From the NCBI GenBank assembly GCA_963627065.1, contig CAVGAA010000001.1, positions 71,628-135,627 of the forward strand: DNA of 64,000 nt, in the 5' to 3' direction. The notes under the pieces are model-generated. The model saw only the letters and a list, made by a program, of their open reading frames with translations. It was not told where the DNA came from and made no database searches. The translations under genes and the position numbers were made by a program. This DNA comes from a bacterium. GTDB lineage: Bacteria; Bacillota; Clostridia; Oscillospirales; CAG-272. Each line of letters begins with the position of its first letter. Within the stretch, counting starts at the first letter, position 1. This document shows positions 9,431 to 40,889 of this stretch, in pieces.

Positions 9431-11854
9431 TCACGGATTGACAGATACGGAAACCTGTCTTTGCGGCGGAATAGCGGGAATGTTGAGCAATTCAACCGAC
9501 GAATGCTCGGTTTTTTCCTCGTCCGACGGCAACAAAGCATTTAAGAGTACTTCGTCAACCGTCCGGCAGGGGACAAAAATCAACCCGTCGCGTGCCATGG
9601 GATCGAGATCTTCCATATCACGCAGATTTTCCTGCGGAATGAGAACGGTTTTCACACCTGCGGAATAAGCCGCCATTGTTTTTTCTTTCAGACCGCCGAT
9701 TGCAAGCACTTTTCCACGCAGACTGACCTCGCCCGTCATTGCAATATCGCGACGGACGGCACGTCCCGTCAAGGCACTGATAAGAGCCGTCACCATTGTG
9801 ACACCGGCACTCGGACCGTCTTTCGGAACAGCCCCTTCGGGAAAATGAATGTGAATATCTTTCGTTTTGTAGAAATCGGTCGGAATTTCGTACTGCTTTG
9901 CCACAGATCGCACATAACTGACCGCAATCATGGCGGATTCTTTCATCACATCGCCGAGCGAACCGGTCGTTTCGATTTTTCCCGTTCCTTCGAGGACGGC
10001 AACCTCGACCTTGAGGAGCGTTCCGCCGAGTTCGGTGTAAGCCAATCCGTTCACACAACCAACCTCGTCGACCTCGTCAATCGTATCGGGCAGAAGCTTC
10101 CTCGAACCGAGATAGCCCTTCACGTCGGCGGTATCGACGACAATTTGCTTGGTATCGGGCTTCGTGAGCAGAATTTTTGCGGTTTTGCGACAAATTTTCG
10201 CAATCGTACGTTCAAGGTTACGCACACCGGCTTCTCTCGTATAGTAATCTATAATTTCTGTCAAAGCACCGTCCGTAAATTTCAGGACCTTCTTGCCGAT
10301 GTTGTGCAGTTTCAACTGTTTCGGAATGAGATGACGTTTCGCAATTTCCAGTTTTTCCCGCTTCGTATAAATCCCGATTTCGATAATTTCCATACGGTCT
10401 ATGAGCGGTTTCGGAATGTCCGAGAGATCGTTTGCGGTCGCAATGAACATACAACCGGACAGATCGAAGGGGAGTTCTACAAAATGGTCACGGAAACTTT
10501 TGTTCTGCTCACCGTCCAGAACTTCGAGCATGGCGGATGTCGGATCGCCGTGTGCGTCACTGCACATTTTGTCGATTTCGTCAAGCAGGATCAGGGGATT
10601 GCGAACGCCTGCCTGCGTAAGAGCCGTAATAATCCGCCCGGGCATTGCACCGATATAGGTTTTGCGGTGACCTCTGATGTCCGCCTCGTCACGCACACCG
10701 CCGAGGGAAATGCGAACGTATTTGCGGTTCAGAGAATGAGCAATCGAAGATGCGATTGAGGTTTTGCCGACGCCGGGAGGTCCGACCAAACAAAGAATCT
10801 GTCCGTTCAGTTCGGGGCTTTGTTGCTTTGCCGCAAGATATTCCACAATCCGTTCTTTCACCTTTTCAAGACCGTAATGGTCGTTGTCGAGTGCTTTCTC
10901 AACGGCATCGAACTGCAATTTTTCCTTTGTTGTCTTCTTCCAAGGAATATCAAGACAAACATCGAGATAATTGTAAATCACGGAGGCTTCGGCAGAACCG
11001 TAGGGGACTTTCGAGAGCCGTTCGGCTTCTTTCAAAAGTTTCTGTTCCACTTCTTCCGGCAGTAAAGCTTTCTTAATTTTTCTGCAATAGTCCTCGTAAT
11101 CCGAACCCTCGCCGAGTTCTTCTTCGATAACCTTCATTTCCTCACGGAGATAATATTCCCGTTGATTGCGACGCATCCGTGCATCGACTTTCGCACGCAG
11201 TTTGGATTGCTCCGCAACGACATCGGACTCGTGCAGGAGAATCGTAATCAGCGATTCGGCACGTTGCATCGGATCGAATTCTTCAAGGATCGTTAGCTTG
11301 TCGTCAACCGATTGAATGAAATGATTGGCAATGAAATCCGAGAGAACCCCGGGATCTTTGATTGAATGTGCGGAGATCAACAGATCTTCCGATCCGGAGG
11401 GGACGATGCGTGTATTTTCGTCAAGCAGTATGAGCAACTGCCGAGCGAACGCCTCCGCCAAAATGGTGTCGGTGAGCGTTATCGTTTTTTGAACGAGATC
11501 GGCGGTGATGAGTTCGGACTTTTCGTCCCTGCGATACTGTATCACTTTCGCACGTTCAAGCCCTTGACCGATGATGCGAGTACCGCCGTCGGACATCCGG
11601 AGCATTTGTTTGATTTTCACAACTGTACCGACACCGAAAAGTTTTTTGGTTTCCGGAACGACATTTACCGGAATCGGTTCGGTCGTGCAGACGACGAAAA
11701 TCAAACCGTCGGCGGATTTTGCTTTTTTTACGGCGAGTTCCGCAGATTCGTCGGAAGTCTCAAAACTGACGGGGAGAGAGGGATAGCAAACCGAGCCGTG
11801 CAGTGCAACGACCGGCAGAGTCAACTGTTCGGCTGTTTCAATGTATTCAGACAT
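9431..11854 (-). CDS. lon: ATP-dependent Lon protease
   Basis: Walker A GPPGVGKTS and catalytic PKDGPSAGVTM, with an N-terminal LON domain. The ATG at 11854 is preferred over the track TTG at 11878. Confidence 0.95.
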   Translation of the reverse strand: MSEYIETAEQLTLPVVALHGSVCYPSLPVSFETSDESAELAVKKAKSADGLIFVVCTTEPIPVNVVPETKKLFGVGTVVKIKQMLRMSDGGTRIIGQGLERAKVIQYRRDEKSELITADLVQKTITLTDTILAEAFARQLLILLDENTRIVPSGSEDLLISAHSIKDPGVLSDFIANHFIQSVDDKLTILEEFDPMQRAESLITILLHESDVVAEQSKLRAKVDARMRRNQREYYLREEMKVIEEELGEGSDYEDYCRKIKKALLPEEVEQKLLKEAERLSKVPYGSAEASVIYNYLDVCLDIPWKKTTKEKLQFDAVEKALDNDHYGLEKVKERIVEYLAAKQQSPELNGQILCLVGPPGVGKTSIASSIAHSLNRKYVRISLGGVRDEADIRGHRKTYIGAMPGRIITALTQAGVRNPLILLDEIDKMCSDAHGDPTSAMLEVLDGEQNKSFRDHFVELPFDLSGCMFIATANDLSDIPKPLIDRMEIIEIGIYTKREKLEIAKRHLIPKQLKLHNIGKKVLKFTDGALTEIIDYYTREAGVRNLERTIAKICRKTAKILLTKPDTKQIVVDTADVKGYLGSRKLLPDTIDEVDEVGCVNGLAYTELGGTLLKVEVAVLEGTGKIETTGSLGDVMKESAMIAVSYVRSVAKQYEIPTDFYKTKDIHIHFPEGAVPKDGPSAGVTMVTALISALTGRAVRRDIAMTGEVSLRGKVLAIGGLKEKTMAAYSAGVKTVLIPQENLRDMEDLDPMARDGLIFVPCRTVDEVLLNALLPSDEEKTEHSSVELLNIPAIPPQRQVSVSVNP

Positions 11855-31942: not shown

Positions 31943-32177
31943 GATAAATAAAGAAATTATCAAGAGAATTTTGTTGTGTTACAATAGATGTGTCACAAAA
32001 AGCGTTGTTCAGTGTTAGGGCGGAATAAAAATTGGCTATTTATCTAATCGCCTGATGAAAAAAATCAACAATATTATATTTCGTAAGAATACACAAAACC
32101 GCACAAATCAAATTTTCAATCGTTTTTTTGTGTGTTTTGTGCTAATTTTATGTTATAATTGGCTGCTTTCGTTATTT

Positions 32178-32207
32178 TACTGTAAAAAGGTACACTTTTT
32201 TATAGTA
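32178..32207. repeat. 30-bp palindromic unit, copy 1 (TACTGTAAAAA-GGTACAC-TTTTTTATAGTA)
   Basis: Read directly. Its reverse complement closely matches the unit at 32338-32368. Confidence 0.8.
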
Positions 32208-32337
32208 AATTTTCTCACTTGTCAAGCATTACCAAAAATGTCAAAATGCACGAATTACAATGATGTTTATCTGTTATTGTAAACATTATATCACAAAAAG
32301 AAACGTTTGTCAAGCCTTTTTTTGATATTTATTCGAA

Positions 32338-32368
32338 AACTGTAAAAAAGTGTACCATTTTTACAGTG
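32338..32368. repeat. 30-bp palindromic unit, copy 2, inverted relative to copy 1 (AACTGTAAAAAA-GTGTACC-ATTTTTACAGTG)
   Basis: Read directly. It lies immediately upstream of the IS30-type transposase remnant. Confidence 0.8.
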
Positions 32369-32391
32369 GCTTTCATTGCATGTACAATTTT

Positions 32392-32680
32392 ATCTCTTTA
32401 ACTGAAAGTATGCTCCGTTTTAGCATTAGATTGAAGGTAGAGCCACATTCTGTGGAGACGGTAGACGAAGCCTTAAAAGCCGTTGTTTACCGCATACGGA
32501 AGTCGCTATTCAGAGGTCTTCCAAATCATTACAAGTGATAACGGATTGGAGTTTGCACATCTCGCCGAACTTAAAAAAATCGGTATCGGAGTCTACTTTA
32601 CCCACCCATACACGTCCTGCGAAAAACGGACCGTCGAGTGCCACAACAAGACGTTGAGACGGTTTATACCGAAGAAAAAA
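32392..32680 (+). pseudogene. IS30-family transposase remnant (central/C-terminal catalytic part only, frameshifted)
   Basis: Two frames carry ISLTESMLRFSIRLKVEPHSVETVDEALKAV, then FQIITSDNGLEFAHLAELKKIGIGVYFTHPYTSCEKRTVECHNKTLRRFIPKKK. These resemble the IS30 segments LTLvERkTRf and SITsDNGsEF...YFahPYssWERGtNEN...RRfiPK. The N-terminal half is absent. Confidence 0.65.
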
Positions 32681-32789
32681 GAGCATTGCGAATTATTGCA
32701 TTTTGCTATTGCAATTTCTACATTATTTAATAAGATAATGATAATTTTTTTATTTTCTTGCTGTGATAAAATAATGGAGGGCTATTTTG

Positions 32790-33809
32790 ATGAAACGAAA
32801 CCCGCAAAAAGAGTTTTATTTTCAATGGCATTTTTTGAATTCGTGTAATTTACGTTGCAAACATTGCTATCAAGAAGATTACAGATGTCAGGACATGGAT
32901 TTTGAAACTTTAAAAAAAATCGCTGATGAAATAATTAAAGCATTAATTCGATGGGATATGTACGGTCGCATATCTTTGACTGGAGGGGAACCTTTTTTAA
33001 GTAAGCACTTACATCGGTTGCTTGAGTATTTGAATCAATCGGAAAGGATCATTTCAATTGATATACTTACCAACGGAACGCTAATTACAGAATCTGATAT
33101 TAAAAAAATGAAAAGTTATAAAAAGTTACATCAAATACAAATTTCGCTTGATGGTGGTACAGCAGAAATTCATGATAGCGTTCGTGGAGCAGGTAATTTT
33201 GAAAAAGCATTACAAGGTATTAGGTTATTGAAGCAATCCGGTGTTGAAGTTGCTTTGATGTATACCTTGCAACAACTAAATAAGGATGGATATAACGATT
33301 TCATAGATGTTGCTTTGAGAGAAAATGTTGATGCAATTACGATTGAACGAGTTACCCCGTGCGGTCAAAGTGCGTTGCAAGACTTAATACCTGCAGATGA
33401 AATTAGAAGAATCTATACGGAAATTACTCGAAGAGCCAATGGTATGTCATCAAAACCAGTCATTAGACGAGCTCGTCCATTATGGATTAATACAATGTGT
33501 GATAACATTCGCTCTGATTGTAATATTGGGGGCTTTTGTCCCGTTGGGTTTACAGCTTTAGCAATACTCCATGACGGAACCGTCCTTCCTTGTCGAAGAA
33601 TGGAAATTCCATTAGGAAACATTTTAACGGATGGCTTGTTTAAAATTTGGTATTCAAGTGAAGTTCTTTGGAAGATACGTGACAAAAATAATTTAAAAGG
33701 TAAATGTCATGGATGCGAACATCTTTCTGCGTGTGGGGGATGCAGGGCTGTGGCATATGCAACAACTGGTGATTATTTGGAGGAGGATCCGCAATGCTGG
33801 AAAAACTAA
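32790..33809 (+). CDS. Radical SAM / SPASM-domain peptide-modifying maturase
   Basis: CNLRCKHC (CX3CX2C) and SLTGGEPF. The C-terminal auxiliary-cluster motifs are CPVGFTALAILHDGTVLPC (CX12GX4C) and CHGCEHLSACGGC...C. GGAGGG SD is 8 nt upstream. Confidence 0.85.
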   Translation: MKRNPQKEFYFQWHFLNSCNLRCKHCYQEDYRCQDMDFETLKKIADEIIKALIRWDMYGRISLTGGEPFLSKHLHRLLEYLNQSERIISIDILTNGTLITESDIKKMKSYKKLHQIQISLDGGTAEIHDSVRGAGNFEKALQGIRLLKQSGVEVALMYTLQQLNKDGYNDFIDVALRENVDAITIERVTPCGQSALQDLIPADEIRRIYTEITRRANGMSSKPVIRRARPLWINTMCDNIRSDCNIGGFCPVGFTALAILHDGTVLPCRRMEIPLGNILTDGLFKIWYSSEVLWKIRDKNNLKGKCHGCEHLSACGGCRAVAYATTGDYLEEDPQCWKN

Positions 33810-34078
33810 GTAATGTCTATCAATTAAATAATAATATTATTATAAAAGGTATCAATGACAAGTATTGGGCATTGGATACAAACACAGGTGCACAATTCCG
33901 ATTGAATGAATTATCATTTGATATTTTGTCTTTGACAAACGGTAATAACTCAGTTGATTACATCGTTGAACAGCAATTTGCAAAATATTCTGTAAAGAAA
34001 GAACTCCTAATTCGTGATATTCTTTCTTTTCTTGAAACAGCCTTGAATAAGGGGCTTATTTCAAAGAAAAAGGAATAA
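33794..34078 (+). CDS. PqqD-family peptide chaperone (RiPP recognition element)
   Basis: 94 aa: FRLNELSFDILSLTNGNNSVDYIVEQQFAKYSV...ILSFLETALNKGLI, a PqqD-like pattern. AGGAGG SD lies upstream and the gene overlaps the maturase gene by 16 nt. Confidence 0.8.
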   Translation: MLEKLSNVYQLNNNIIIKGINDKYWALDTNTGAQFRLNELSFDILSLTNGNNSVDYIVEQQFAKYSVKKELLIRDILSFLETALNKGLISKKKE

Positions 34079-34084
34079 TGATAT

Positions 34085-35275
34085 ATGCTTATAGATGCAC
34101 ACAGCCATTTAGGCACAAATGATTTGTGTACTGATGGAAAATCATTTAGGTATGATTTATCTAATACAGCAGATGAATACATTAAATACATGGATGCGAA
34201 TGGTATAAATAAAGCTGTGATACTTCCAATACCAGGAAACAATTACGACTCTGTAAAATCTAATGACGTTCTTTATTCGGCCAGTCTTAAGTATCCTAAC
34301 AGATTTATACCATTTTGCAAGTTGGACAGTTTTTTACCAACTAACATTATGTGCAAGGGGTTTTATGGGGCCAAGTATCATATGGTGTATGAATCTTATC
34401 CAAAAACAACCTTAAGTCAATATTATAAACTTTTGGAATACTATGGATTCCCTTTAATTATTCATGCAAAGTATCCTGAAAAGGGGAAACAAATTTGTGA
34501 TATCCTCGAAGTGGCACCAAATTTAAAGATAATACTTGCACATATGGGACGAGGTCATATTTATACTGATGAAATGATTCCAGATTTGTTAAATCAATTT
34601 AAGAATGTTCCGAATTTATTTTTTGAATCCTCAACTGTGGGTAGATCAAGAATGATTGAACTTGCTTGCGAGACTATTGGTGCTGATCGTCTTATGTACG
34701 GTTCAGACTATCCGTTTGGCAAGGCATGGTTCAGAGACTCATTTATTCCTGATGATGAAATGTCCGTAATATCAAAAGCGAATATTACAGTTGAAGAAAA
34801 AGAGTTAATTCTTCATGGAACAATCGAAAAGATTATTAAGAATTGCGATGAGAAGAGAAATGGTTTTTATGTGCGCCCTTATTTAAAGACTGATAAAAAT
34901 GAATTTGAAGCACTATTAGCATCACTCTCAAAATCTGATAGGAAGTTGCTTGCAATTGATAAAAAAATGTCTGTAATACACGATTGTATGAGAAATGAGC
35001 GGCATATTTATTTAGCTATTAATGCCGGGAAGATAGTCGGTTTCTTCAGGGAAAGCGGACGTTCTAATCATACTTTTATGTTAGAGGAATTTGCGGTTTT
35101 TCCTCAGTATCGTGGGCATGGTTTTTCTAAGTTAATGTTGCAATACTATACTGTATTTTTTGAAAAATCCTCTGTAAAGACATTATCGTCGAATGTCACC
35201 ATGAATCATATTTTGCCGATGTTTTCCTTTGTGCCAGTTTATGGAAAAGAAACGATAAATTGGATTCGAGCGTAG
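34085..35275 (+). CDS. Fusion protein: amidohydrolase_2 (TIM-barrel metal hydrolase) N-domain plus GNAT acetyltransferase C-domain
   Basis: LIDAHSHLG, ILAHMGRG and MYGSDYPF in the first 260 aa or so. The GNAT motif A, FAVFPQYRGHGFSKLML, lies near the C-terminus. Confidence 0.7.
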   Translation: MLIDAHSHLGTNDLCTDGKSFRYDLSNTADEYIKYMDANGINKAVILPIPGNNYDSVKSNDVLYSASLKYPNRFIPFCKLDSFLPTNIMCKGFYGAKYHMVYESYPKTTLSQYYKLLEYYGFPLIIHAKYPEKGKQICDILEVAPNLKIILAHMGRGHIYTDEMIPDLLNQFKNVPNLFFESSTVGRSRMIELACETIGADRLMYGSDYPFGKAWFRDSFIPDDEMSVISKANITVEEKELILHGTIEKIIKNCDEKRNGFYVRPYLKTDKNEFEALLASLSKSDRKLLAIDKKMSVIHDCMRNERHIYLAINAGKIVGFFRESGRSNHTFMLEEFAVFPQYRGHGFSKLMLQYYTVFFEKSSVKTLSSNVTMNHILPMFSFVPVYGKETINWIRA

Positions 35276-35280
35276 AAGCA

Positions 35281-36204
35281 ATGATTTTTAATAACGATAT
35301 TCTAAAAATCACCAATAATAAACGGGATTTTTATTCTCCAATTATAAGTGCGTTAGTTGAAACTAAATCTATAGAATTCTTTTTATCAAAAGGATTTCAT
35401 CTGTTTGCGTTACCAATTATGAATGATGCAGTTGCTACGAAAGAAAAAACGATTCAATTTAATTTTGACCATCAAAATATCGAATTAAATAGCAGTCAAG
35501 CAATGCGAATCTCAGCTTTATCTGCCTTTTATAATCAAGTTTTTTCAGTGAGTAAATGTTTTAGAAATGAAAAAAACGTTGATTTTTCGCATTTATCGGA
35601 ATTCACGATGTTAGAAGCAGAGTTTTCAATCGAAAAGGAGACTGATATTTTCGATTTGATAGAGAATTATTTAGCGTTTATTATTGACTGGTTTGACACA
35701 TTTATTGTTGAACAAAATTTGACAGATGTTTTTAAGCATCGTACTGTTTCGTTTCCCATAGAGCAAATTAATTATGATTTGTTGCTAAAAAGTGAGAAAA
35801 TCAAAGGCAAGAAGTTAATTTTTGATCATTTTGATTTTTGCGATATTGATGTAAGTGCGGATATCGATAAACCCATCTTTATTGTTAATTATCCGTGCGT
35901 TGGTTCTTGGCGGGCCAAACGCAAAGATAACTTACATGCTTTTTTGTACAACTTGATTCTACCATGCGGCTTTGGAGAATTAGTTGAGTGTTCAATTAGG
36001 GAAATCGATTATGCTTTTTATAAGCAGAAATTTGATTACTTAGGAATGTCCGAGTCTTATTCTTGGTACTTAGATGCTATGCGTATTAATCACGGTATAA
36101 AAGCTGGCTTTGGTCTTGGTTTAGAGCGACTTGCAGCTTGGCTTATGGATTTAAAAGCTATTGGCGATCAATTAATCTTTCCAAGATTGCCAGGAGGACA
36201 ATAA
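35281..36204 (+). CDS. Stand-alone class II (IIb, Asp/Asn/Lys-RS-like) aminoacyl-tRNA-synthetase catalytic core without an anticodon-binding domain
   Basis: Motif 2-like VSKCFRNEKNVDFSHLSEFTMLEAEF and motif 3-like GFGLGLERLAAWLMDL...LIFPRLPGG. At about 307 aa it is too short to hold the N-terminal OB fold. Alternative TTG start at 35260. Confidence 0.7.
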   Translation: MIFNNDILKITNNKRDFYSPIISALVETKSIEFFLSKGFHLFALPIMNDAVATKEKTIQFNFDHQNIELNSSQAMRISALSAFYNQVFSVSKCFRNEKNVDFSHLSEFTMLEAEFSIEKETDIFDLIENYLAFIIDWFDTFIVEQNLTDVFKHRTVSFPIEQINYDLLLKSEKIKGKKLIFDHFDFCDIDVSADIDKPIFIVNYPCVGSWRAKRKDNLHAFLYNLILPCGFGELVECSIREIDYAFYKQKFDYLGMSESYSWYLDAMRINHGIKAGFGLGLERLAAWLMDLKAIGDQLIFPRLPGGQ

Positions 36205-36206
36205 AA

Positions 36207-37010
36207 ATGTCAATTGAATTAGAAAGATGCACTATGGCCTTACATAGGATGGTTTATGAAATGAATCGTAAGGGCATAGAGCAATCAAGAATTACTAAAT
36301 GTGCTACGCAATTACTAATGAGCGGAGTTTCCCAAAATTCAATATCGACGGAAATTGTTCAAAAATGTATTGAAACTCAAAACAATGATGGCGGTTGGGT
36401 TGCAGTTGTTGACACAATATGGAATGCAAAGTTTTTATCATTTTTTAGTAAAACCAACGAAAATATTGTTCATGCATATCGATATTTAAATGATAACAAA
36501 GTGGATTTTGGTTTTGGAAGGTCTAAACGTGATATAGGTAGAATTCCGGTAACTGGTATCGCTTATTACTTACATCCTCAATTGGCAACTTTGGATGGAT
36601 TAAGATGGTTGGAAAATCTTTGGATTTCAGAAAAGAATGGACTAACATATAAAGCAGCTTATACATTGATGGCTTTCAAACGCACAAATTATAAGCCGTT
36701 AAATATTGGGGTTATAGAAGAAGCTGTTCTTTGGTTATTGTCTCAGCAGGAAAAAGATGGTGGCTTTTCTCCTTGGAAACATCATCCTGTAGGGACCAAT
36801 GTTTATTGTACGGCTCTTTCGTTGATTGGCTTACTTCAATACAATGAGTTTATTCCTCAAGCTAATGCTGCTATTGAGGCAGCTTATCAGTATATTTATA
36901 AAAATCAGTTAATCAATGGACTGTGGCCGTATCATGAATTAGAAGATGGTGGGGCATGGGGAATGCAAGCTATGTTTCAATATGAAAGCGAGTACGCACA
37001 TGAGTTCTAA
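36207..37010 (+). CDS. Prenyltransferase / squalene-oxidase-repeat (alpha-alpha toroid) protein
   Basis: Repeats QNNDGGWVAV, QQEKDGGFSPW and NGLWPYHELEDGGAWG. GGAGG SD precedes the ATG at 36207. Confidence 0.65.
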   Translation: MSIELERCTMALHRMVYEMNRKGIEQSRITKCATQLLMSGVSQNSISTEIVQKCIETQNNDGGWVAVVDTIWNAKFLSFFSKTNENIVHAYRYLNDNKVDFGFGRSKRDIGRIPVTGIAYYLHPQLATLDGLRWLENLWISEKNGLTYKAAYTLMAFKRTNYKPLNIGVIEEAVLWLLSQQEKDGGFSPWKHHPVGTNVYCTALSLIGLLQYNEFIPQANAAIEAAYQYIYKNQLINGLWPYHELEDGGAWGMQAMFQYESEYAHEF

Positions 37011-38253
37011 AAAATCCATTTTATTGGTATACCCTAAACCGCAATTTGATAAGAATCCGCGATTCGGTTTTTCAATTCAGCTGATGCAATTAGCTACAAT
37101 TTTGAAGCAAAAGTATAAAGTATTTTTTTTGGATTATTCTTATCTCGATTTTGATGAAAGCAAATTTCGCTTATATTTGTTAAATAATAACATATCGCAT
37201 ATTGTCGTTGAATTTGATTCTTTTTCACTAAAAAGATCTGAGAATTATGAAAATGCACTCTTATTACTTAATATTGCAAGGGAAAGAAAAATAATTTCAG
37301 TTGCTTTTGGTAATGATTGCATAATGGATAATTCAAATAGCATTTGTGCGGATTACATTATTAGAGAAGATCCATTATTAAAAATCGGGAAAATCTTTAA
37401 TGTTTTTTCTGATGAGTTGACGGAAATGGAATATGATGTTATTCCATTTCCAGATCGCGAATTGCTGAAAACTAATCCGTTTTTCTTAAAGAATTCTAAT
37501 TCTACACTTATTCGTACATCTGAAGGCTGTTTAAATACATGTTCTTTTTGTCAGCGTCGGGGGTGGCAAAAGAAATATAAAGCACATAATATTGAATATG
37601 TTATACGAGAATTTGAATATTTAAAGGACCACAATTACCAAAATGTATGGGTTGCAGATGATAATTTTACCTTCGATTTAAGTCGAGCAAAGAAAATTCT
37701 TTCAATTCTTTCGCAACAAAAATTAACTGTTGGAATGAATCTAGCGATTAGTAGCTGGACAAGAATAGATGAAGATTTATTACAGTTGGCACAACAGGCA
37801 AATGTAAAAATAATTAGTATGGGTATAGAATCTGCTAATTATGAAATATTGGACTTTTATAACAAAAAAATAGATTTACAAAGGACTAAACAGTTAATCG
37901 AATATGCAGATCTGCTTGGTATTTATACTATTGGAAATTTTATCATAGGAGCACCTATGGAAACAATGGTAACTATTGAAAATACCTTTGACTATATAAT
38001 GTCCACTAAATTAGATCAAATTAACATTAAAACTTTAGATTATATGCTCGGGTCAGTATTGTATGAAAATTTGCCAAAAAAGGTAGAGCACCACTATTTT
38101 GCATGCTCGGAAAATGGGTTGTGCAGTTTTTCACTAAATGAATTATCGAAAATTAAGAAAGATTTTCTTACAAGATTTAATTTGGAGAGGCAAGATTTTC
38201 GAATGGAAAAAATAAAAAAATTTGGACTTCCATATATTCCTTTAAAGATATAA
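37000..38253 (+). CDS. B12-binding-domain radical SAM enzyme (class B type)
   Basis: The N-terminal Rossmann-like segment (ILLVYPKPQ...KVFFLDYSY) is followed by RTSEGCLNTCSFCQ (CX3CX2C). It overlaps the previous gene by 11 nt. Confidence 0.75.
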   Translation: MSSKKSILLVYPKPQFDKNPRFGFSIQLMQLATILKQKYKVFFLDYSYLDFDESKFRLYLLNNNISHIVVEFDSFSLKRSENYENALLLLNIARERKIISVAFGNDCIMDNSNSICADYIIREDPLLKIGKIFNVFSDELTEMEYDVIPFPDRELLKTNPFFLKNSNSTLIRTSEGCLNTCSFCQRRGWQKKYKAHNIEYVIREFEYLKDHNYQNVWVADDNFTFDLSRAKKILSILSQQKLTVGMNLAISSWTRIDEDLLQLAQQANVKIISMGIESANYEILDFYNKKIDLQRTKQLIEYADLLGIYTIGNFIIGAPMETMVTIENTFDYIMSTKLDQINIKTLDYMLGSVLYENLPKKVEHHYFACSENGLCSFSLNELSKIKKDFLTRFNLERQDFRMEKIKKFGLPYIPLKI

Positions 38254-38254
38254 T

Positions 38255-39532
38255 ATGAATTATTGGATTTTGGGGTTAGGTGCTGTTGCGCAATGTTTTT
38301 TAAAACTTTTATGTGCTAACGAATCAATAGATGCTTCACATGTATATTGCATCGAGCCTGATTGCAAAAAAGTCTCAATTTTTGTAAAATTAGGTTTTAT
38401 TAAAAAAAACTTTATATGCAATGCGTTAAATAGATATAATTATGCAACGGTTTTACAATCATTGATTCCAAAGGATTATTGTATCGATTTTTCTAGTTTA
38501 ACCAATTCTAAAGATTTACTAGTTTTTTGTGCGAAAAAGAAAGTTCATTACCTTTCCGTAGCAGATACTTTTTGGAAAGATGAGTCAGAGAATTTCGGAG
38601 CAAGCCACATGGATTATTTGAATATAATTTCTTCTTTTCCTAATAATCCAACGTCGATTATACAATTTGGTATGAATCCAGGATTGGTTTCATCATTTGC
38701 AAAGCAAAGCATAAAAATGCTCTGGTCAATCAATACTTTGACAGAATCAAAAAATGCCATTAAGCAGCAGGATGAGTTTTGTATTGCAAAAAAAGCATCA
38801 ATCTTAAATATAAATAAAATTTGTATCTGTGATTGGGACATGCAACATTCCAATCTCAATATTGAGAAAAGCACTATTTACTCGACATGGAACATTGATG
38901 CTTTTGTGAATGAAGCAACAACTCGTCCGGAATATCCTGCAGGCATTCCCAATGACGACAACATGGATGAGATAGTAGATTTTAATCTTAACTATCGAAG
39001 GAAAAATGTTCCTGCTTATGCAGCTATGCATGAATTAGTTTCACCTATAAACAGTACTAATGGCTTTATTATGACGCATGAAGAAACATACTCTATTGCA
39101 CATTATTTGTCGTATAGAGAATCTGATAAAATAACTTATAGGCCTGAAGTTATATTTGTATACAAACCATGTAATGAATCAATATTTTCTATTAAGAATC
39201 TATTGAAGGCCGGTTTTGATAGATTAGATTCATTTCAAAAACACATTTTAGTTCCTAGAGAAATCATTTCAGGTGGAGAGTATGTAGGGGTAACATTATA
39301 TCAAAATGATATACCTATATTTTACTTCGGAAATGATTGCGAAAAAAGTGGTATAGAAGGCTCTAATATAACTGTATTTCAAGTCGCTGTTTCGTGTTTT
39401 GCTGCATTGAAATACATAGAAACGCATGCGGATTTTGGAATACTTTTCCCGGAAGATGTTGATGATGATTTTATTATCGATATTGTTCGTCAATTTATGA
39501 GGTTGAATTATGGATTTATTAAAAAAGCATAA
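38255..39532 (+). CDS. Saccharopine-dehydrogenase / homospermidine-synthase-like NAD(P)-binding protein
   Basis: N-terminal ILGLGAVAQ Rossmann loop. FGMNPGLVSSFAKQSI resembles the GANPGLVSHFVKQA motif recalled for homospermidine synthases. It starts 1 nt after the preceding stop. Confidence 0.5.
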   Translation: MNYWILGLGAVAQCFLKLLCANESIDASHVYCIEPDCKKVSIFVKLGFIKKNFICNALNRYNYATVLQSLIPKDYCIDFSSLTNSKDLLVFCAKKKVHYLSVADTFWKDESENFGASHMDYLNIISSFPNNPTSIIQFGMNPGLVSSFAKQSIKMLWSINTLTESKNAIKQQDEFCIAKKASILNINKICICDWDMQHSNLNIEKSTIYSTWNIDAFVNEATTRPEYPAGIPNDDNMDEIVDFNLNYRRKNVPAYAAMHELVSPINSTNGFIMTHEETYSIAHYLSYRESDKITYRPEVIFVYKPCNESIFSIKNLLKAGFDRLDSFQKHILVPREIISGGEYVGVTLYQNDIPIFYFGNDCEKSGIEGSNITVFQVAVSCFAALKYIETHADFGILFPEDVDDDFIIDIVRQFMRLNYGFIKKA

Positions 39533-39743
39533 ATGTTCTCATTGCAGAGGAGCTGGTAAAATATTTTGTTACGAATGTAGGGGAACTGGAGGAATTAGCA
39601 ATTTTGAATTGCATGATCATGAAGGAAATTCATCGCTTTTTGATGGTGAATTATTAGACCGGTTGTGTTCCATATGTTTTGGCACTGGCAAAATTGTTTG
39701 TAAAGTTTGTAACGGAACAGGAAAAAGTTGTAGACTGTGTTAA
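39510..39743 (+). CDS. Small DnaJ-CR-type zinc-finger protein (4x CxxCxGxG, 77 aa)
   Basis: CSHCRGAG, CYECRGTG, CSICFGTG and CKVCNGTG, plus a terminal CRLC. GAGG SD lies upstream and the gene overlaps the previous gene by 23 nt. Confidence 0.7.
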   Translation: MDLLKKHKCSHCRGAGKIFCYECRGTGGISNFELHDHEGNSSLFDGELLDRLCSICFGTGKIVCKVCNGTGKSCRLC

Positions 39744-39782
39744 TCCACAGATTCTATAAATATAAAAGAAAGGAGAAAAATT

Positions 39783-39911
39783 ATGGAAAAAATGTCTTAT
39801 AGTGCTCCCGTCCTTGAAGAGGTTACTGAGATGGTCTTCACAAAAGAAGTTTGGGAAGAATTTAACAGTGGTCGCTGGTGCTTTGGTTGCTCTAATTGCA
39901 ATTGCAACTAA
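39783..39911 (+). CDS. Candidate RiPP precursor peptide (42 aa), not in the ORF track
   Basis: AAAGGAG lies 7 nt before the ATG. Own translation: MEKMSYSAPVLEEVTEMVFTKEVWEEFNSGRWCFGCSNCNCN*. It has an acidic leader-like N-terminus and four Cys in the last 10 residues, and is the last gene of the island operon. Confidence 0.7.
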   Translation: MEKMSYSAPVLEEVTEMVFTKEVWEEFNSGRWCFGCSNCNCN

Positions 39912-39937
39912 AGTAGAATTTTAAGATTTAGGACGGG

Positions 39938-39990
39938 GATGCCATTCCTGATATATAGAGATATGTATCGGGGATGGTATCTTTGCATTT
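39938..39990 (+). terminator. Possible operon terminator after the precursor ORF
   Basis: GATGCCAT (39938-39945) pairs with ATGGTATC (39974-39981) with one G-U pair, followed by TTTGCATTTT. The loop is long, so this call is weak. Confidence 0.3.
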
Positions 39991-40889
39991 TACTTTTTCT
40001 CTTTGTACAACCGGTATTGCACGGGACTCATACCGTTCAGATTCATTTAAATTCTTTCGTTGTTGTAGTACGCAATGTACTCCTCCAATTTCTCAATGAA
40101 TCCCCGAGGGGATTCAAATTTTTCGCCGTAAAACATCTCAACTTTCAGCCGTCCGAAGAAATTTTCCATGACACTGTTGTCAAGGCAATTCCCTTTCCGT
40201 GACATACTCTGCGTGATGTGATGCTCGGCGAGAAGCCTCTGGTACTCGGGGTGCTGGTACTGCCAGCCTTGGTCGGAATGGAACAGCGGTCTTGCATCCG
40301 GCGGGAGTTTTTCGAACAATCCTGCCAACATATCCTTGACTTGTTGCAGGTTGGGACTCAGGGAAATAGTGTAGGCGAGGACCTCACGGTTAAATAAATC
40401 GAGGACGAGCGAGAGGTAGATTCTTACATCGAAGACCTTAAACTCCGTGATGTCTGTTGTTATCTTTTCGAACGGCTTATCTGCGTGAAAATCCCTGTTC
40501 AGCACGTTGTCGGCAGTCTTTCCGATCGTGCCTTTGTAGGAATTATAACTGCCGTTTTTGCTCTGTTTTCCCTTCAAACCGAGCATTTTCATCAGTTTCA
40601 GGACGGTTTTGTGGTTGATTTTGAAGTTTTCTGACCGCATGACAGCCAAGATTCGTCTGTAACCGTATCTGCCTTTGTTGTCGTCGAAGATTTTCTTGAT
40701 TGCCGTTTTTTCCTCTTGGTACTTGTCCTTGCCTTTTTGTTTCAGGTAATAGTAGAACGTACTCCTTGCCATTCCGGAAACAGCCAGCAGATCTTTCAGC
40801 GGAAACCATTGCCTCAGCTCAGCAGGTAAGGTCACATCCGGAAGCTCCGAGTACACCGAATAAACGGAATCTTTCCCGTCGGTCGTCAC
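39990..40889 (-). pseudogene. IS3-family transposase OrfB (integrase core) with a premature stop
   Basis: RSTFYYY, GYRRI, HSDQGWQY and GNCLDNSVMENFFG motifs. TAA at 40049-40047 interrupts ...YYNNERI*MNLNGMSPVQYRLYKEKK*, cutting off the conserved SPxxYR tail. Confidence 0.75.

What the first reader, a model, noticed from the sequence alone, without database searches (positions are those of the whole stretch)
35260..36204. Truncated class-II aminoacyl-tRNA-synthetase paralog embedded in the peptide-modification operon
The protein keeps recognisable class IIb motifs: motif 2-like CFRNEKNVDFSHLSEFTMLEAEF and motif 3-like GFGLGLERLAAWLMDL...FPRLPG. At about 307-314 aa it has no room for the N-terminal OB-fold anticodon-binding domain. 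Known stand-alone class-II cores do not charge tRNA. Examples are AsnA, EpmA/PoxA (which lysylates EF-P) and the amino acid:carrier-protein ligases; they activate an amino acid with ATP and transfer it to another acceptor. In this context the obvious candidate acceptor is the precursor peptide or a pathway intermediate, which would be an unusual tRNA-independent aminoacylation or amidation step in RiPP maturation.
Basis: partly seen in the sequence, partly recalled or inferred. Interest (0 to 1): 0.78.

Follow-up and report, generated by a model that had tools for sequence, protein, structure and literature searches.

The report
AsnRS-derived ligase in a new RiPP cluster
The gene really is a shortened copy of the enzyme that normally loads asparagine onto tRNA; it sits in a widespread, unstudied operon that modifies a small cysteine-rich peptide, where it most likely does an optional ATP-driven ligation without using tRNA.

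Summary
ORF 35260-36204 (probable start ATG 35281, 307 aa) is a class IIb aaRS catalytic core (Pfam PF00152, E 5e-30). The AF2 model (pLDDT 89) superposes best on AsnRS. There is no OB fold, and the motif 2 and 3 arginines and the ATP/Mg site are intact.

New findings:
- The precursor is a 42-aa ORF at 39783-39911 ending in WCFGCSNCNCN. This core is nearly invariant in about 100 related loci.
- The aaRS-like proteins of these clusters form one clade inside AsnRS, not with archaeal AsnA.
- Basal members keep a full OB fold and a basic motif-2 loop, intermediate ones have an eroded OB fold, and the window's clade has lost both. The truncation is therefore derived.
- All members share four fixed changes at AsnRS-invariant sites (Q→A, F→W, D→N, G→E) and most lack the flipping-loop Glu.
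- The gene is under purifying selection (dN/dS about 0.1), yet it is accessory: present in 34 of 42 cluster lineages and lost at least five times.

Best reading: a tRNA-independent adenylate-forming tailoring ligase for an Asn/Asp-like substrate. The acceptor is unproven. No curated family or searchable paper covers it.

The parts
35281..36204 (+). AsnRS-derived class IIb catalytic core without an anticodon-binding domain (307 aa; the mechanical ORF starts at TTG 35260). Motif 2 is at nt 35557-35625 and motif 3 at nt 36106-36153.
   Evidence: Pfam PF00152, E 4.6e-30. AF2 and Foldseek match AsnRS best. Catalytic residues R95, E97, H104, F108, E112, E233, R240 and R283 are conserved. dN/dS in the truncated clade is 0.09-0.16.
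39783..39911 (+). Precursor peptide, 42 aa: MEKMSYSAPVLEEVTEMVFTKEVWEEFNSGRWCFGCSNCNCN (acidic leader plus core WCFGCSNCNCN).
   Evidence: Small ORF. The same peptide is present in every related locus. There are 179 precursor clusters at 90% identity, 102 of the 120 listed ending in WCFGC[TS]NCNCN.
32787..33809 (+). Radical SAM/SPASM maturase (core gene of the cluster).
   Evidence: PF04055, PF13186 and PF13353. It falls below every NCBIfam equivalog cut-off. Syntenic in the related loci.
33794..34078 (+). PqqD-family peptide chaperone (RRE).
   Evidence: PF05402, E 1e-9. Syntenic.
34085..35275 (+). Amidohydro_2 domain fused to a GNAT N-acetyltransferase domain; it ends 5 nt before the aaRS-like start.
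   Evidence: PF04909, E 4e-14, with weak PF00583/PF13508 hits. The GNAT hit is strong in orthologues, where it is either a separate gene directly upstream of the aaRS-like gene or fused. GNAT resembles ordinary N-acetyltransferases.
36207..37010 (+). Single alpha/alpha-toroid protein (terpene-cyclase/TED-like fold), a core gene of the cluster.
   Evidence: Weak Pfam hits to TED, SQHop_cyclase and Prenyltrans. AF2 pLDDT 95.7. Foldseek best matches are class II terpene cyclase domains, TMq about 0.7. Homologues are 45-62% identical across many anaerobe phyla.
37000..38253 (+). Second radical SAM enzyme (B12-binding type in orthologues), a core gene.
   Evidence: PF04055. Best NCBIfam hits are B12-rSAM methyltransferases, all below cut-off. 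PF02310 is detected in the orthologues of L017 and L021.
38255..39532 (+). Saccharopine-dehydrogenase-like protein; an accessory gene seen only in this window's version of the cluster.
   Evidence: PF03435, E 3e-10. No counterpart in any other locus mapped.
39510..39743 (+). 77-aa CxxCxGxG zinc-ribbon-like small protein (accessory).
   Evidence: Sub-threshold BSD2_CRD and DnaJ_CXXCXGXG hits. A 47-aa relative occurs in L007-L009.
39936..39983 (+). Terminator-like hairpin closing the operon.
   Evidence: Consensus scan; a pattern match only.
40047..40889 (-). IS3-family transposase flanking the low-GC island (boundary marker, not part of the pathway).
   Evidence: rve plus HTH_21 domains. GC is 33% across 32-40 kb against 45-50% in the flanks.

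Best explanation
SHOWN. The protein is a catalytically intact, anticodon-domain-less descendant of an asparaginyl-tRNA synthetase. That synthetase was recruited once into a conserved radical-SAM RiPP cluster whose precursor ends in WCFGC(T/S)NCNCN. The protein is under purifying selection but is an accessory (tailoring-type) component of the cluster. The truncation is a derived state.

INFERRED. It no longer uses tRNA. It binds ATP and a small Asn/Asp-like amino acid in a non-canonical pose, as archaeal AsnA does. The conserved Glu112, Arg240 and the new invariant Glu236 would hold the substrate, while the canonical alpha-amine clamps are gone. It forms an acyl-adenylate and passes the acyl group to a non-tRNA nucleophile of the maturing peptide. 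The most plausible nucleophile is an amine exposed by the Amidohydro_2 domain. The GNAT domain encoded immediately upstream would then cap a free amine. This is MshB/MshC/MshD-like or EpmA-like logic.

My probabilities: about 0.65-0.7 that it is an active, tRNA-independent adenylate-forming enzyme serving this pathway; about 0.4 that the donor is a free amino acid ligated onto the peptide or an intermediate, which is the figure given below.
For: Fold and ATP-site residues are intact. The gene sits between GNAT and the toroid in 53 of 62 loci where that slot is on the contig, and in 34 of 42 lineages after 90% de-replication. The aaRS-like tree and the toroid+rSAM2 tree group the loci in the same way. 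dN/dS is 0.09-0.16 for pairs with dS below 1.4.

Evidence for loss of tRNA use: there is no OB fold, and the motif-2 loop has lost its basic residues in the truncated clade, whereas 17 of 17 OB-bearing orthologues keep a ..T-x-[KR]-H loop. Pfam OB-fold scores fall from 54 and 39 bits, through 28, 22 and 19 bits, to none. AsnRS model scores fall from 318 to 103 bits. No tRNA gene or T-box lies in the clusters.

Evidence for a non-canonical substrate pose: the flipping-loop Glu is invariant in AsnRS and contacts the Asn moiety (E279 in human AsnRS, PMC10831071), but it is lost here. The Gln of QSxQ becomes Ala, the Mg-site Asp becomes Asn, and the first Gly of GGS becomes Glu. Loss of the flipping-loop Glu, replacement of that Gln, and the Asp→Asn change are also seen in archaeal AsnA sequences.

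Evidence on the partner: GNAT lies directly upstream of the aaRS-like gene in nearly all loci that carry it. Its best curated hit is MshD, but only weakly, at 29 bits.

Precedents, from my own knowledge and PMC3532385: AsnA, EpmA/GenX and HisZ are aaRS-core paralogues that do not charge tRNA.
Against: The acceptor is entirely inferred. GNAT persists in 5 lineages that lost the aaRS-like gene (6 loci), and the aaRS-like gene persists in L001-L004, where the amidohydrolase-GNAT gene is degraded, so the two are not obligately coupled. OB-bearing orthologues keep tRNA-binding features under selection, which suggests tRNA mattered at least ancestrally. The lost alpha-amine clamps fit an N-blocked substrate, such as a peptide C-terminus, equally well. 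The OB-versus-loop correlation rests on very few independent evolutionary events, so the Fisher p value overstates it.
Confidence: 0.4

Rival explanations
1. The enzyme adenylates the peptide's own C-terminal carboxylate. The peptidyl-Asn would sit in the old Asn pocket, with the chain leaving through the former tRNA acceptor channel. Ammonia or an internal nucleophile would then give a C-terminal amide or a macrocycle. This would be an optional end-cap, paired with N-acetylation by GNAT.
For: The core almost always ends in Asn: 102 of 120 precursor clusters end in WCFGC[TS]NCNCN. The Asn side-chain clamp (E112, R240) is kept while the alpha-amine clamps are lost in every member. The core has only one carboxylate. 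In L055 and L057 a class I methyltransferase occupies the GNAT+aaRS slot, and its best curated hits are carboxyl O-methyltransferases (BioC 57 bits, Tam 36 bits, both sub-threshold). The one informative cluster whose precursor ends in ...NCNCSCY lacks the enzyme (L074). An optional cap fits the repeated losses. C-terminal adenylation is established RiPP chemistry, though only for ThiF-like enzymes (papers listed).
Against: The L102 precursor ends in Ser, yet its next gene starts with an OB-type aaRS-like N-terminus. Six other aaRS-less lineages keep the C-terminal Asn. No class II aaRS fold is known to accept a peptide C-terminus. The retained OB fold and basic loop in 13 lineages have no obvious use in this model.
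Confidence: 0.25
2. It is still part of a tRNA-dependent route. The paralogue charges a tRNA, and the adjacent GNAT acts as an aminoacyl-tRNA-dependent transferase onto the peptide.
For: Basal orthologues P0118 and P0114 have a full OB fold (54 and 39 bits), a basic motif-2 loop, and near-threshold AsnRS scores (318 and 292 bits against a cut-off of 414). GNAT is always next to them.
Against: The window protein has no OB fold and a neutral or acidic motif-2 loop. The OB fold erodes stepwise across the clade. GNAT shows an ordinary acetyl-CoA-type signature (R-G-x-G). No tRNA gene is present in any cluster.
Confidence: 0.07
3. It provides self-protection. The product would target AsnRS, and the paralogue would be a resistant copy (OB-bearing forms) or a decoy that binds the inhibitor (truncated forms). 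GNAT and the amidohydrolase would be detoxifying enzymes, as in microcin C immunity.
For: Extra aaRS copies in biosynthetic clusters are a known resistance strategy (own knowledge). The gene is dispensable in some lineages. The active site is conserved, as a decoy would require.
Against: A truncated core cannot replace AsnRS. Even the OB-bearing forms have lost AsnRS-invariant substrate residues. There is no evidence about the product's target.
Confidence: 0.08
4. It is an AsnA-type asparagine synthetase (Asp + NH3 + ATP → free Asn), supplying Asn, or else it is a decaying relic with no role in the pathway.
For: It shares the S-S and N-L-I-L-P signatures with archaeal AsnA. The best stand-alone curated hit is archaeal AsnA, at 75 bits. 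The gene has been lost repeatedly.
Against: It is not sister to archaeal AsnA (19.5% bootstrap against 97% for the RiPP clade). It has Glu rather than Asp at the motif-2 position that AsnA and AspRS use. It occurs only inside this cluster. dN/dS of about 0.1 excludes a relic.
Confidence: 0.07

Closest known systems
Asparaginyl-tRNA synthetase (class IIb; e.g. P. horikoshii 1x54, T. thermophilus 5zg8)
   Same: It has the same catalytic fold and the best sequence and structure matches. The motif 1-3, ATP and Mg residues and the Asn side-chain pair (T. thermophilus E225/R368 = E112/R240 here) are kept. The clade nests inside AsnRS.
   Different: It has no OB fold and no basic motif-2 loop. The flipping-loop Glu is lost. 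There are four fixed replacements at AsnRS-invariant sites: Q→A74, F→W210, D→N224 and G→E236. It scores 103 bits against a cut-off of 414. It is encoded only inside a RiPP operon.
Archaeal asparagine synthetase A (AS-AR, 'AsnRS2'; P. abyssi 3p8t/3rl6, P. furiosus 1nnh)
   Same: It is a stand-alone class IIb core of about 300 aa that does not charge tRNA. It shares the loss of the flipping-loop Glu, the S-S in place of Q-S, and N-L-I-L-P in place of D-x-L-A-P. The structural match has TMq 0.76.
   Different: It is not a sister group. AS-AR has Asp at the motif-2 end and GGTRE, whereas this family has Glu and E-x-x-x-R. It scores 75 bits against a cut-off of 309. AS-AR is a housekeeping enzyme, whereas this one is cluster-bound and accessory.
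EpmA/PoxA/GenX (LysRS-derived EF-P lysine ligase)
   Same: The logic is the same: an aaRS core without an anticodon domain activates an amino acid and acylates an amine on a protein instead of tRNA.
   Different: EpmA derives from LysRS, not AsnRS. The score is 35 bits against a cut-off of 287. There is no EF-P or EpmB context. The acceptor here is unknown.
MshB-MshC-MshD module of mycothiol synthesis
   Same: The gene trio has the same logic: a metal-dependent amidohydrolase, an aaRS-derived tRNA-independent amino-acid ligase, and a GNAT that acetylates the new amine. GNAT's best curated hit is MshD.
   Different: MshC is a class I, CysRS-derived enzyme and MshB belongs to the LmbE family, so there is no homology except the GNAT fold, and that hit is weak (29 bits against a cut-off of 163). 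The substrates there are sugars, not a ribosomal peptide. This is an analogy only.
ThiF/E1-like RiPP adenylating enzymes (MccB and relatives)
   Same: They perform ATP-dependent adenylation within RiPP maturation. MccB acts on a C-terminal Asn (papers listed).
   Different: The fold is unrelated. This comparison is relevant only if the C-terminal-activation rival is correct.

Membership tests
Asparagine--tRNA ligase (AsnRS) | Class IIb catalytic fold with motifs 1-3 and the ATP-binding arginines | tested here: met
   PF00152, E 4.6e-30. Foldseek places AsnRS first. R95 and R283 are invariant.
Asparagine--tRNA ligase (AsnRS) | N-terminal OB-fold anticodon-binding domain | tested here: not met
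   No PF01336 hit, and only 19 residues precede the core. The feature is present in orthologues P0118 and P0114.
Asparagine--tRNA ligase (AsnRS) | Score at or above the curated equivalog cut-off | tested here: not met
   PRK03932: 103 bits against 414. TIGR00457: 88 bits against 343.
Asparagine--tRNA ligase (AsnRS) | AsnRS-invariant amino-acid-site residues (flipping-loop Glu, Gln of QSxQ, Mg-site Asp, GGS) | tested here: not met
   These are replaced or lost in 70 family members, against 96-100% conservation in 25 AsnRS sequences.
Asparagine--tRNA ligase (AsnRS) | Aminoacylation of tRNA(Asn) | not testable with these tools
   Only indirect evidence: loss of the OB fold and of the basic motif-2 loop.
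Archaeal asparagine synthetase A (AS-AR) | Stand-alone class IIb core without an anticodon domain | tested here: met
Archaeal asparagine synthetase A (AS-AR) | Curated model score, and phylogenetic grouping with AS-AR | tested here: not met
   75.5 bits against a cut-off of 309. Grouping with AS-AR has 19.5% bootstrap, against 97% for a separate RiPP clade.
Archaeal asparagine synthetase A (AS-AR) | Asp + NH3 + ATP → Asn activity | not testable with these tools
   The motif-2-end residue is Glu (AsnRS-like), not Asp.
EpmA/GenX | LysRS-derived core scoring above the curated cut-off | tested here: not met
   TIGR00462: 35 bits against 287. Structural neighbours are AsnRS and AspRS, ahead of LysRS.
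Amino acid:carrier-protein ligases (SerRS-like) | Class IIa SerRS-type core with an adjacent carrier protein | tested here: not met
   tRNA-synt_2b scores only 17.6 bits, below its cut-off. No carrier protein is present in any locus.
RiPP tailoring enzyme of the WCFGC(T/S)NCNCN cluster | Conserved co-location with the precursor, RRE and maturases across lineages | tested here: met
   Present in 53 of 62 loci and 34 of 42 lineages, always in the same slot.
RiPP tailoring enzyme of the WCFGC(T/S)NCNCN cluster | Present in all clusters (that is, a core maturase) | tested here: not met
   Absent from 8 of 42 lineages, scattered on the toroid+rSAM2 tree, which implies at least five losses.
RiPP tailoring enzyme of the WCFGC(T/S)NCNCN cluster | Chemically modifies the peptide | not testable with these tools
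This needs mass spectrometry.
Cluster-encoded self-resistance aaRS | Full-length enzyme retaining the canonical substrate site | tested here: not met
   The protein is truncated, and its amino-acid site is remodelled even in the OB-bearing forms.

The most novel reading that the evidence does not exclude
A class II aaRS fold has been converted into a peptide-modifying enzyme. The AsnRS-derived core would bind the ribosomal peptide's own C-terminal Asn in the old amino-acid pocket, adenylate it, and so drive C-terminal amidation or macrocyclisation. The family would preserve the intermediate stages (full OB fold, eroded OB fold, none) of the change from a tRNA-charging enzyme to a peptide ligase.
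Probability: 0.25. Interest if true: 0.85.

Novelty: new variant of a known kind. Interest (0 to 1): 0.7.

Why it matters
Stand-alone aaRS cores are known from primary metabolism (AsnA, EpmA, HisZ, amino acid:carrier-protein ligases). I found no curated family and no paper in the searchable library that places one in RiPP maturation.

This family offers three things. First, it is a candidate new ATP-dependent tailoring reaction on a ribosomal peptide. Second, it has living intermediates: an AsnRS-like form with a full OB fold, forms with an eroded OB fold, a truncated core, and lineages where the gene is lost. That makes the conversion of a tRNA synthetase into a tRNA-independent ligase directly testable by comparing natural orthologues. 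Third, it gives an entry point into a widespread, uncharacterised RiPP family of anaerobes (gut Clostridia, Heliomicrobium, Riflebacteria, Synergistota, Planctomycetota and others). The 11-residue core of that family is almost invariant while its enzymes diverge to 25-30% identity, which argues for a very specific product, such as a cofactor-like, metal-binding or signalling molecule.

Tried and rejected
- Literature: searches for aaRS-like enzymes in RiPP or rSAM contexts, for AsnRS paralogues in gene clusters, and for the core peptide string found nothing relevant. The library is limited, so absence is weak evidence.
- NCBIfam search with the precursor: only chance hits.
- Plasmid and phage collections: only housekeeping asnS at 30% identity or less.
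- tRNA genes, T-box or other Rfam elements in the clusters: none.
- Sister relationship to archaeal AsnA: rejected by the NJ bootstrap, although some signature residues are shared.
- Link between the C-terminal residue and presence of the enzyme: inconclusive. L074 (…SCY) lacks the enzyme. L102 (…S) has an OB-type N-terminus just before the contig ends. L101 and L103 are uninformative.
- Net charge of the catalytic core as a proxy for tRNA binding: it does not separate the groups in the expected direction.
- Toroid protein as a prenyltransferase, for a CaaX-like analogy: the fold search gives class II terpene-cyclase and TED-like toroids at TMq about 0.7, which is not decisive.
- Viral contigs: two loci. 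One duplicates L071, where the precursor-like ORF has no recognisable enzymes nearby.
Full report

Yes. The + strand carries an uninterrupted ORF from 35260 to 36204. Homologues, and the database gene call for this very sequence (P0001, 307 aa), begin at ATG 35281, five bases after the stop of the upstream gene. Pfam PF00152 (class II tRNA synthetases D, K, N) matches residues 31-302 to model positions 33-306 of 308, with E 4.6e-30.

An AlphaFold2 model built on a 48-sequence alignment has pLDDT 88.9 and pTM 0.90. Its best matches among solved structures are AsnRS catalytic domains (1x54, E 4e-25, TMq 0.84; 2xti, TMq 0.89). AspRS follows, and archaeal AsnA 3rl6 has TMq 0.76. Only 19 residues precede the catalytic core and no OB-fold domain is detected.

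**2. What surrounds it?**

The region from 32.0 to 40.0 kb is a 33% GC island in a 45-50% GC genome. An IS3-family transposase bounds it on the right. An IS-like remnant on the left was judged by eye only. The flanking IleRS belongs to a 238-member cluster from an uncultured Eubacteriales bacterium, whereas the island proteins checked are singletons or in very small clusters, which indicates a strain-specific acquisition.

The island is one tightly packed + strand operon:
- rSAM/SPASM (32787-33809)
- PqqD (33794-34078)
- Amidohydro_2-GNAT fusion (34085-35275)
- the aaRS-like gene (35281-36204)
- an alpha/alpha toroid (36207-37010)
- a second, B12-type rSAM (37000-38253)
- a saccharopine-dehydrogenase-like gene (38255-39532)
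- a 77-aa zinc-ribbon-like gene (39510-39743)

The precursor had not been located. It is a 42-aa ORF at 39783-39911, MEKMSYSAPVLEEVTEMVFTKEVWEEFNSGRWCFGCSNCNCN, followed by a terminator-like hairpin.

**3. Related loci**

Close homologues of the protein (33-53% identity, 290-320 aa, unnamed) all sit in the same gene order. Every locus carries the same peptide, although the precursor gene moves around within the cluster.

A scan of metagenome contigs with the precursor alignment gave 77 further loci. A protein search gave 179 precursor clusters at 90% identity; 102 of the 120 listed end in WCFGC[TS]NCNCN, and there are rare C-terminal variants (S, T, K, SCY, SSY, NG). Named sources include Ruminococcus sp. 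CAG:624 and Heliomicrobium gestii. Toroid homologues come from Selenomonadaceae, Syntrophomonas, Synergistaceae, Planctomycetaceae, Nitrospirota and others.

No NCBIfam model covers the precursor. All enzymes score below every equivalog cut-off. No paper in the searchable library mentions the core string or an aaRS-like RiPP enzyme.

**4. Evolution of the aaRS-like gene**

A profile search of 1.8 billion representative proteins found about 25 clusters of stand-alone cores. Below them came forms of 360-414 aa. Look-ups showed that these longer proteins occupy the same slot of the same cluster, with the same core peptide:
- P0118 (L021) and P0114 (L017) have a full PF01336 OB fold (54 and 39 bits).
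- P0123 (L019) has a marginal one (28 bits).
- Others reach 19-22 bits over half the model, or nothing.

Scores against the AsnRS equivalog model PRK03932 (cut-off 414) fall in the same order: 318, 292, about 145, and 103 bits for the window protein.

An NJ tree was built from 272 core columns with 200 bootstrap replicates. All cluster-borne proteins form one clade (97%) nested in AsnRS. The branching order is full OB fold, then eroded OB fold, then two truncated clades (85-99%). Grouping with archaeal AsnA has only 19.5% support. A toroid+rSAM2 tree groups the loci in the same way, so the gene has evolved with its cluster.

All 17 OB-bearing forms keep a basic ..T-x-[KR]-H motif-2 loop like AsnRS. 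In the truncated forms this loop is neutral or acidic: VDFSH in the window protein, and only 11 of 53 have any Lys or Arg in the last three loop positions. This correlation reflects very few independent events, so its p value should not be taken at face value. Even so, together with the stepwise erosion of the OB fold, it argues that the window's lineage has given up tRNA binding. No tRNA gene, T-box or other Rfam element occurs in the clusters.

**5. Is it a working enzyme, and on what?**

Across 70 distinct family members the ATP and Mg machinery is conserved exactly as in 25 AsnRS sequences: motif 1 Pro45, Arg95, Glu97, His104, Phe108, Glu233, Gly276, Gly278, Gly280 and Arg283. The pair that AsnRS uses for the Asn side chain (T. 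thermophilus Glu225/Arg368, mapped through the alignment) is also conserved, as Glu112 and Arg240. dN/dS is 0.09-0.16 for pairs with dS below 1.4. The protein is therefore functional.

The amino-acid site is nevertheless remodelled at positions that are 96-100% invariant in AsnRS:
- The Gln of QSxQ becomes Ala74.
- Phe becomes Trp210.
- The Mg-site Asp becomes Asn224.
- The first Gly of GGS becomes Glu236.
- The flipping-loop Glu is lost.

In human AsnRS the flipping-loop Glu (E279) contacts the Asn moiety of Asn-AMP, and the loop locks the adenylate before tRNA enters (PMC10831071). The QSxQ Gln (yeast AspRS Q303) is one of the residues that anchor the substrate (PMC3532385).

These changes are already present in the most AsnRS-like, OB-bearing members, so they are founding changes of the clade. 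Loss of the flipping-loop Glu, replacement of that Gln, and Asp→Asn at the Mg site recur in archaeal AsnA sequences. That enzyme activates the beta-carboxylate of Asp in a different pose and uses ammonia instead of tRNA (own knowledge; PMC3532385).

I infer that the substrate is Asn/Asp-like but is not held as a canonical free alpha-amino acid.

**6. The gene is accessory**

I mapped the cluster genes on all loci. In 62 loci both neighbours of the slot are on the contig; 53 of these carry the aaRS-like gene and 9 do not. After de-replication at 90% toroid identity there are 42 lineages: 21 with a truncated form, 13 with an OB-bearing form and 8 with none. The eight are scattered over the cluster tree, which implies at least five independent losses.

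In L027, L072/L075, L074, L099 and L100, GNAT is followed directly by the toroid. In L055 and L057 a class I SAM methyltransferase sits in the slot; its best, sub-threshold, curated hits are the carboxyl O-methyltransferases BioC and Tam. L065 has neither GNAT nor the aaRS-like gene. Conversely, in L001-L004, the commonest human-gut version, the amidohydrolase-GNAT gene is degraded but the aaRS-like gene is intact.

The invariant set is therefore the precursor, rSAM/SPASM, PqqD, Amidohydro_2, the toroid and the second rSAM. The aaRS-like enzyme performs an optional step.

**7. Mechanism**

What is shown: the ancestry, the intact adenylation machinery, purifying selection, the derived truncation, the accessory status and the constant position next to GNAT.

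What is inferred: the enzyme forms an acyl-adenylate and hands the acyl group to a non-tRNA nucleophile (probability about 0.65-0.7).

For the specific step I favour, by a modest margin (about 0.4), ligation of a free Asn/Asp-like amino acid onto an amine of the maturing peptide. The reasons are:
- Every known aaRS-core paralogue activates a small molecule.
- The new invariant Glu236, with Glu112 and Arg240, could hold a zwitterionic head group in an AsnA-like flipped pose.
- The trio of amidohydrolase, aaRS-derived ligase and GNAT mirrors MshB/MshC/MshD.
- OB-bearing ancestors suggest a path from aminoacyl-tRNA to direct transfer.

The main rival (about 0.25) is adenylation of the peptide's own C-terminal Asn, giving an amide or a macrocycle. 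In its favour are the near-invariant terminal Asn, the loss of the alpha-amine clamps, the single carboxylate in the core, and the methyltransferase replacement. Against it are L102, whose precursor ends in Ser yet is followed by an OB-type aaRS-like N-terminus, and the lack of any precedent.

A tRNA-dependent route through GNAT, self-immunity, and AsnA-type Asn synthesis or a relic each get 0.1 or less, for the reasons given under rival explanations.

**8. Comparison with known systems, and novelty**

The protein is not a member of AsnRS, archaeal AsnA, EpmA or the amino acid:carrier-protein ligases by their curated scores or defining features (see the membership table). It works like the stand-alone aaRS-core ligases. 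Its clade, its context and its graded loss of the tRNA-binding apparatus appear undescribed.

I rate it a new variant of a known kind, with interest 0.7. The enzyme's reaction is unknown but directly testable, and the surrounding RiPP family is itself uncharacterised. The toroid protein is a confident single alpha/alpha barrel (pLDDT 95.7) closest to class II terpene-cyclase domains, which does not by itself reveal its chemistry.

Noticed in passing
window 39783-39911 (+), hairpin 39936-39983: The 42-aa precursor ORF of the cluster lies at the very end of the operon and is followed by a terminator-like hairpin. Its core, WCFGC[TS]NCNCN, is almost invariant in about 100 loci from many phyla, while the enzymes diverge to 25-30% identity.
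   Followed up: yes
window 39510-39743 (+); L007 7536-7679: A 77-aa CxxCxGxG zinc-ribbon-like protein (sub-threshold DnaJ-CRD/BSD2 hits). A 47-aa relative follows the second rSAM in L007-L009. It is absent from most clusters and its role is unknown.
   Followed up: partly
window 38255-39532 (+): A saccharopine-dehydrogenase-like gene is inserted between the second rSAM and the precursor. It was found in no other locus examined.
   Followed up: partly
window 32000-40000; 40047-40889 (-); 32483-32848 (+): The island has 33% GC against 45-50% in the flanks. It is bounded by an IS3-family transposase and, by eye only, an IS30-like remnant. Its proteins are singletons or in very small clusters in a 15-billion-protein collection, while the neighbouring IleRS has 238 cluster members, which points to recent strain-specific acquisition by an uncultured Eubacteriales bacterium.
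   Followed up: partly
L055 15370-16209; L057 4162-5049: In two lineages that lack both GNAT and the aaRS-like gene, a class I SAM methyltransferase occupies the same slot between the amidohydrolase and the toroid. Its best (sub-threshold) curated hits are the carboxyl O-methyltransferases BioC and Tam.
   Followed up: partly
L001-L004 9323-10011: In the most frequently sampled human-gut version of the cluster, the Amidohydro_2-GNAT gene is broken into fragments while the aaRS-like gene and the rest stay intact. A phage-type integrase lies 2 kb upstream.
   Followed up: no
L053 5205-5393 and 8484-8630: One locus carries two precursor genes and two PqqD genes.
   Followed up: no
L104 (= L071) 9941-10123: A precursor-like ORF ending in WCFGCTNCNCN lies on a 117-kb IMG/VR contig. 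No recognisable cluster enzyme lies within 10 kb, and the neighbouring ORFs have no Pfam hits.
   Followed up: partly
window 36207-37010 (+): The toroid protein is the best-conserved enzyme of the cluster (45-62% identity across phyla). Its invariant Arg, Lys, His, Asp and Trp residues include R105, R108, R112, K149, H193 and H243. Its fold is closest to class II terpene cyclase domains and thioester (TED) domains. Sources name it 'terpene cyclase/mutase family protein'.
   Followed up: partly
L021 3186-4736; L017 2-715; L048 6698-8326: A roughly 520-aa TPR-containing, probably membrane-anchored protein is present in the OB-fold-bearing versions of the cluster, between the amidohydrolase and GNAT. 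It is missing from the window's version, where those two are fused.
   Followed up: no
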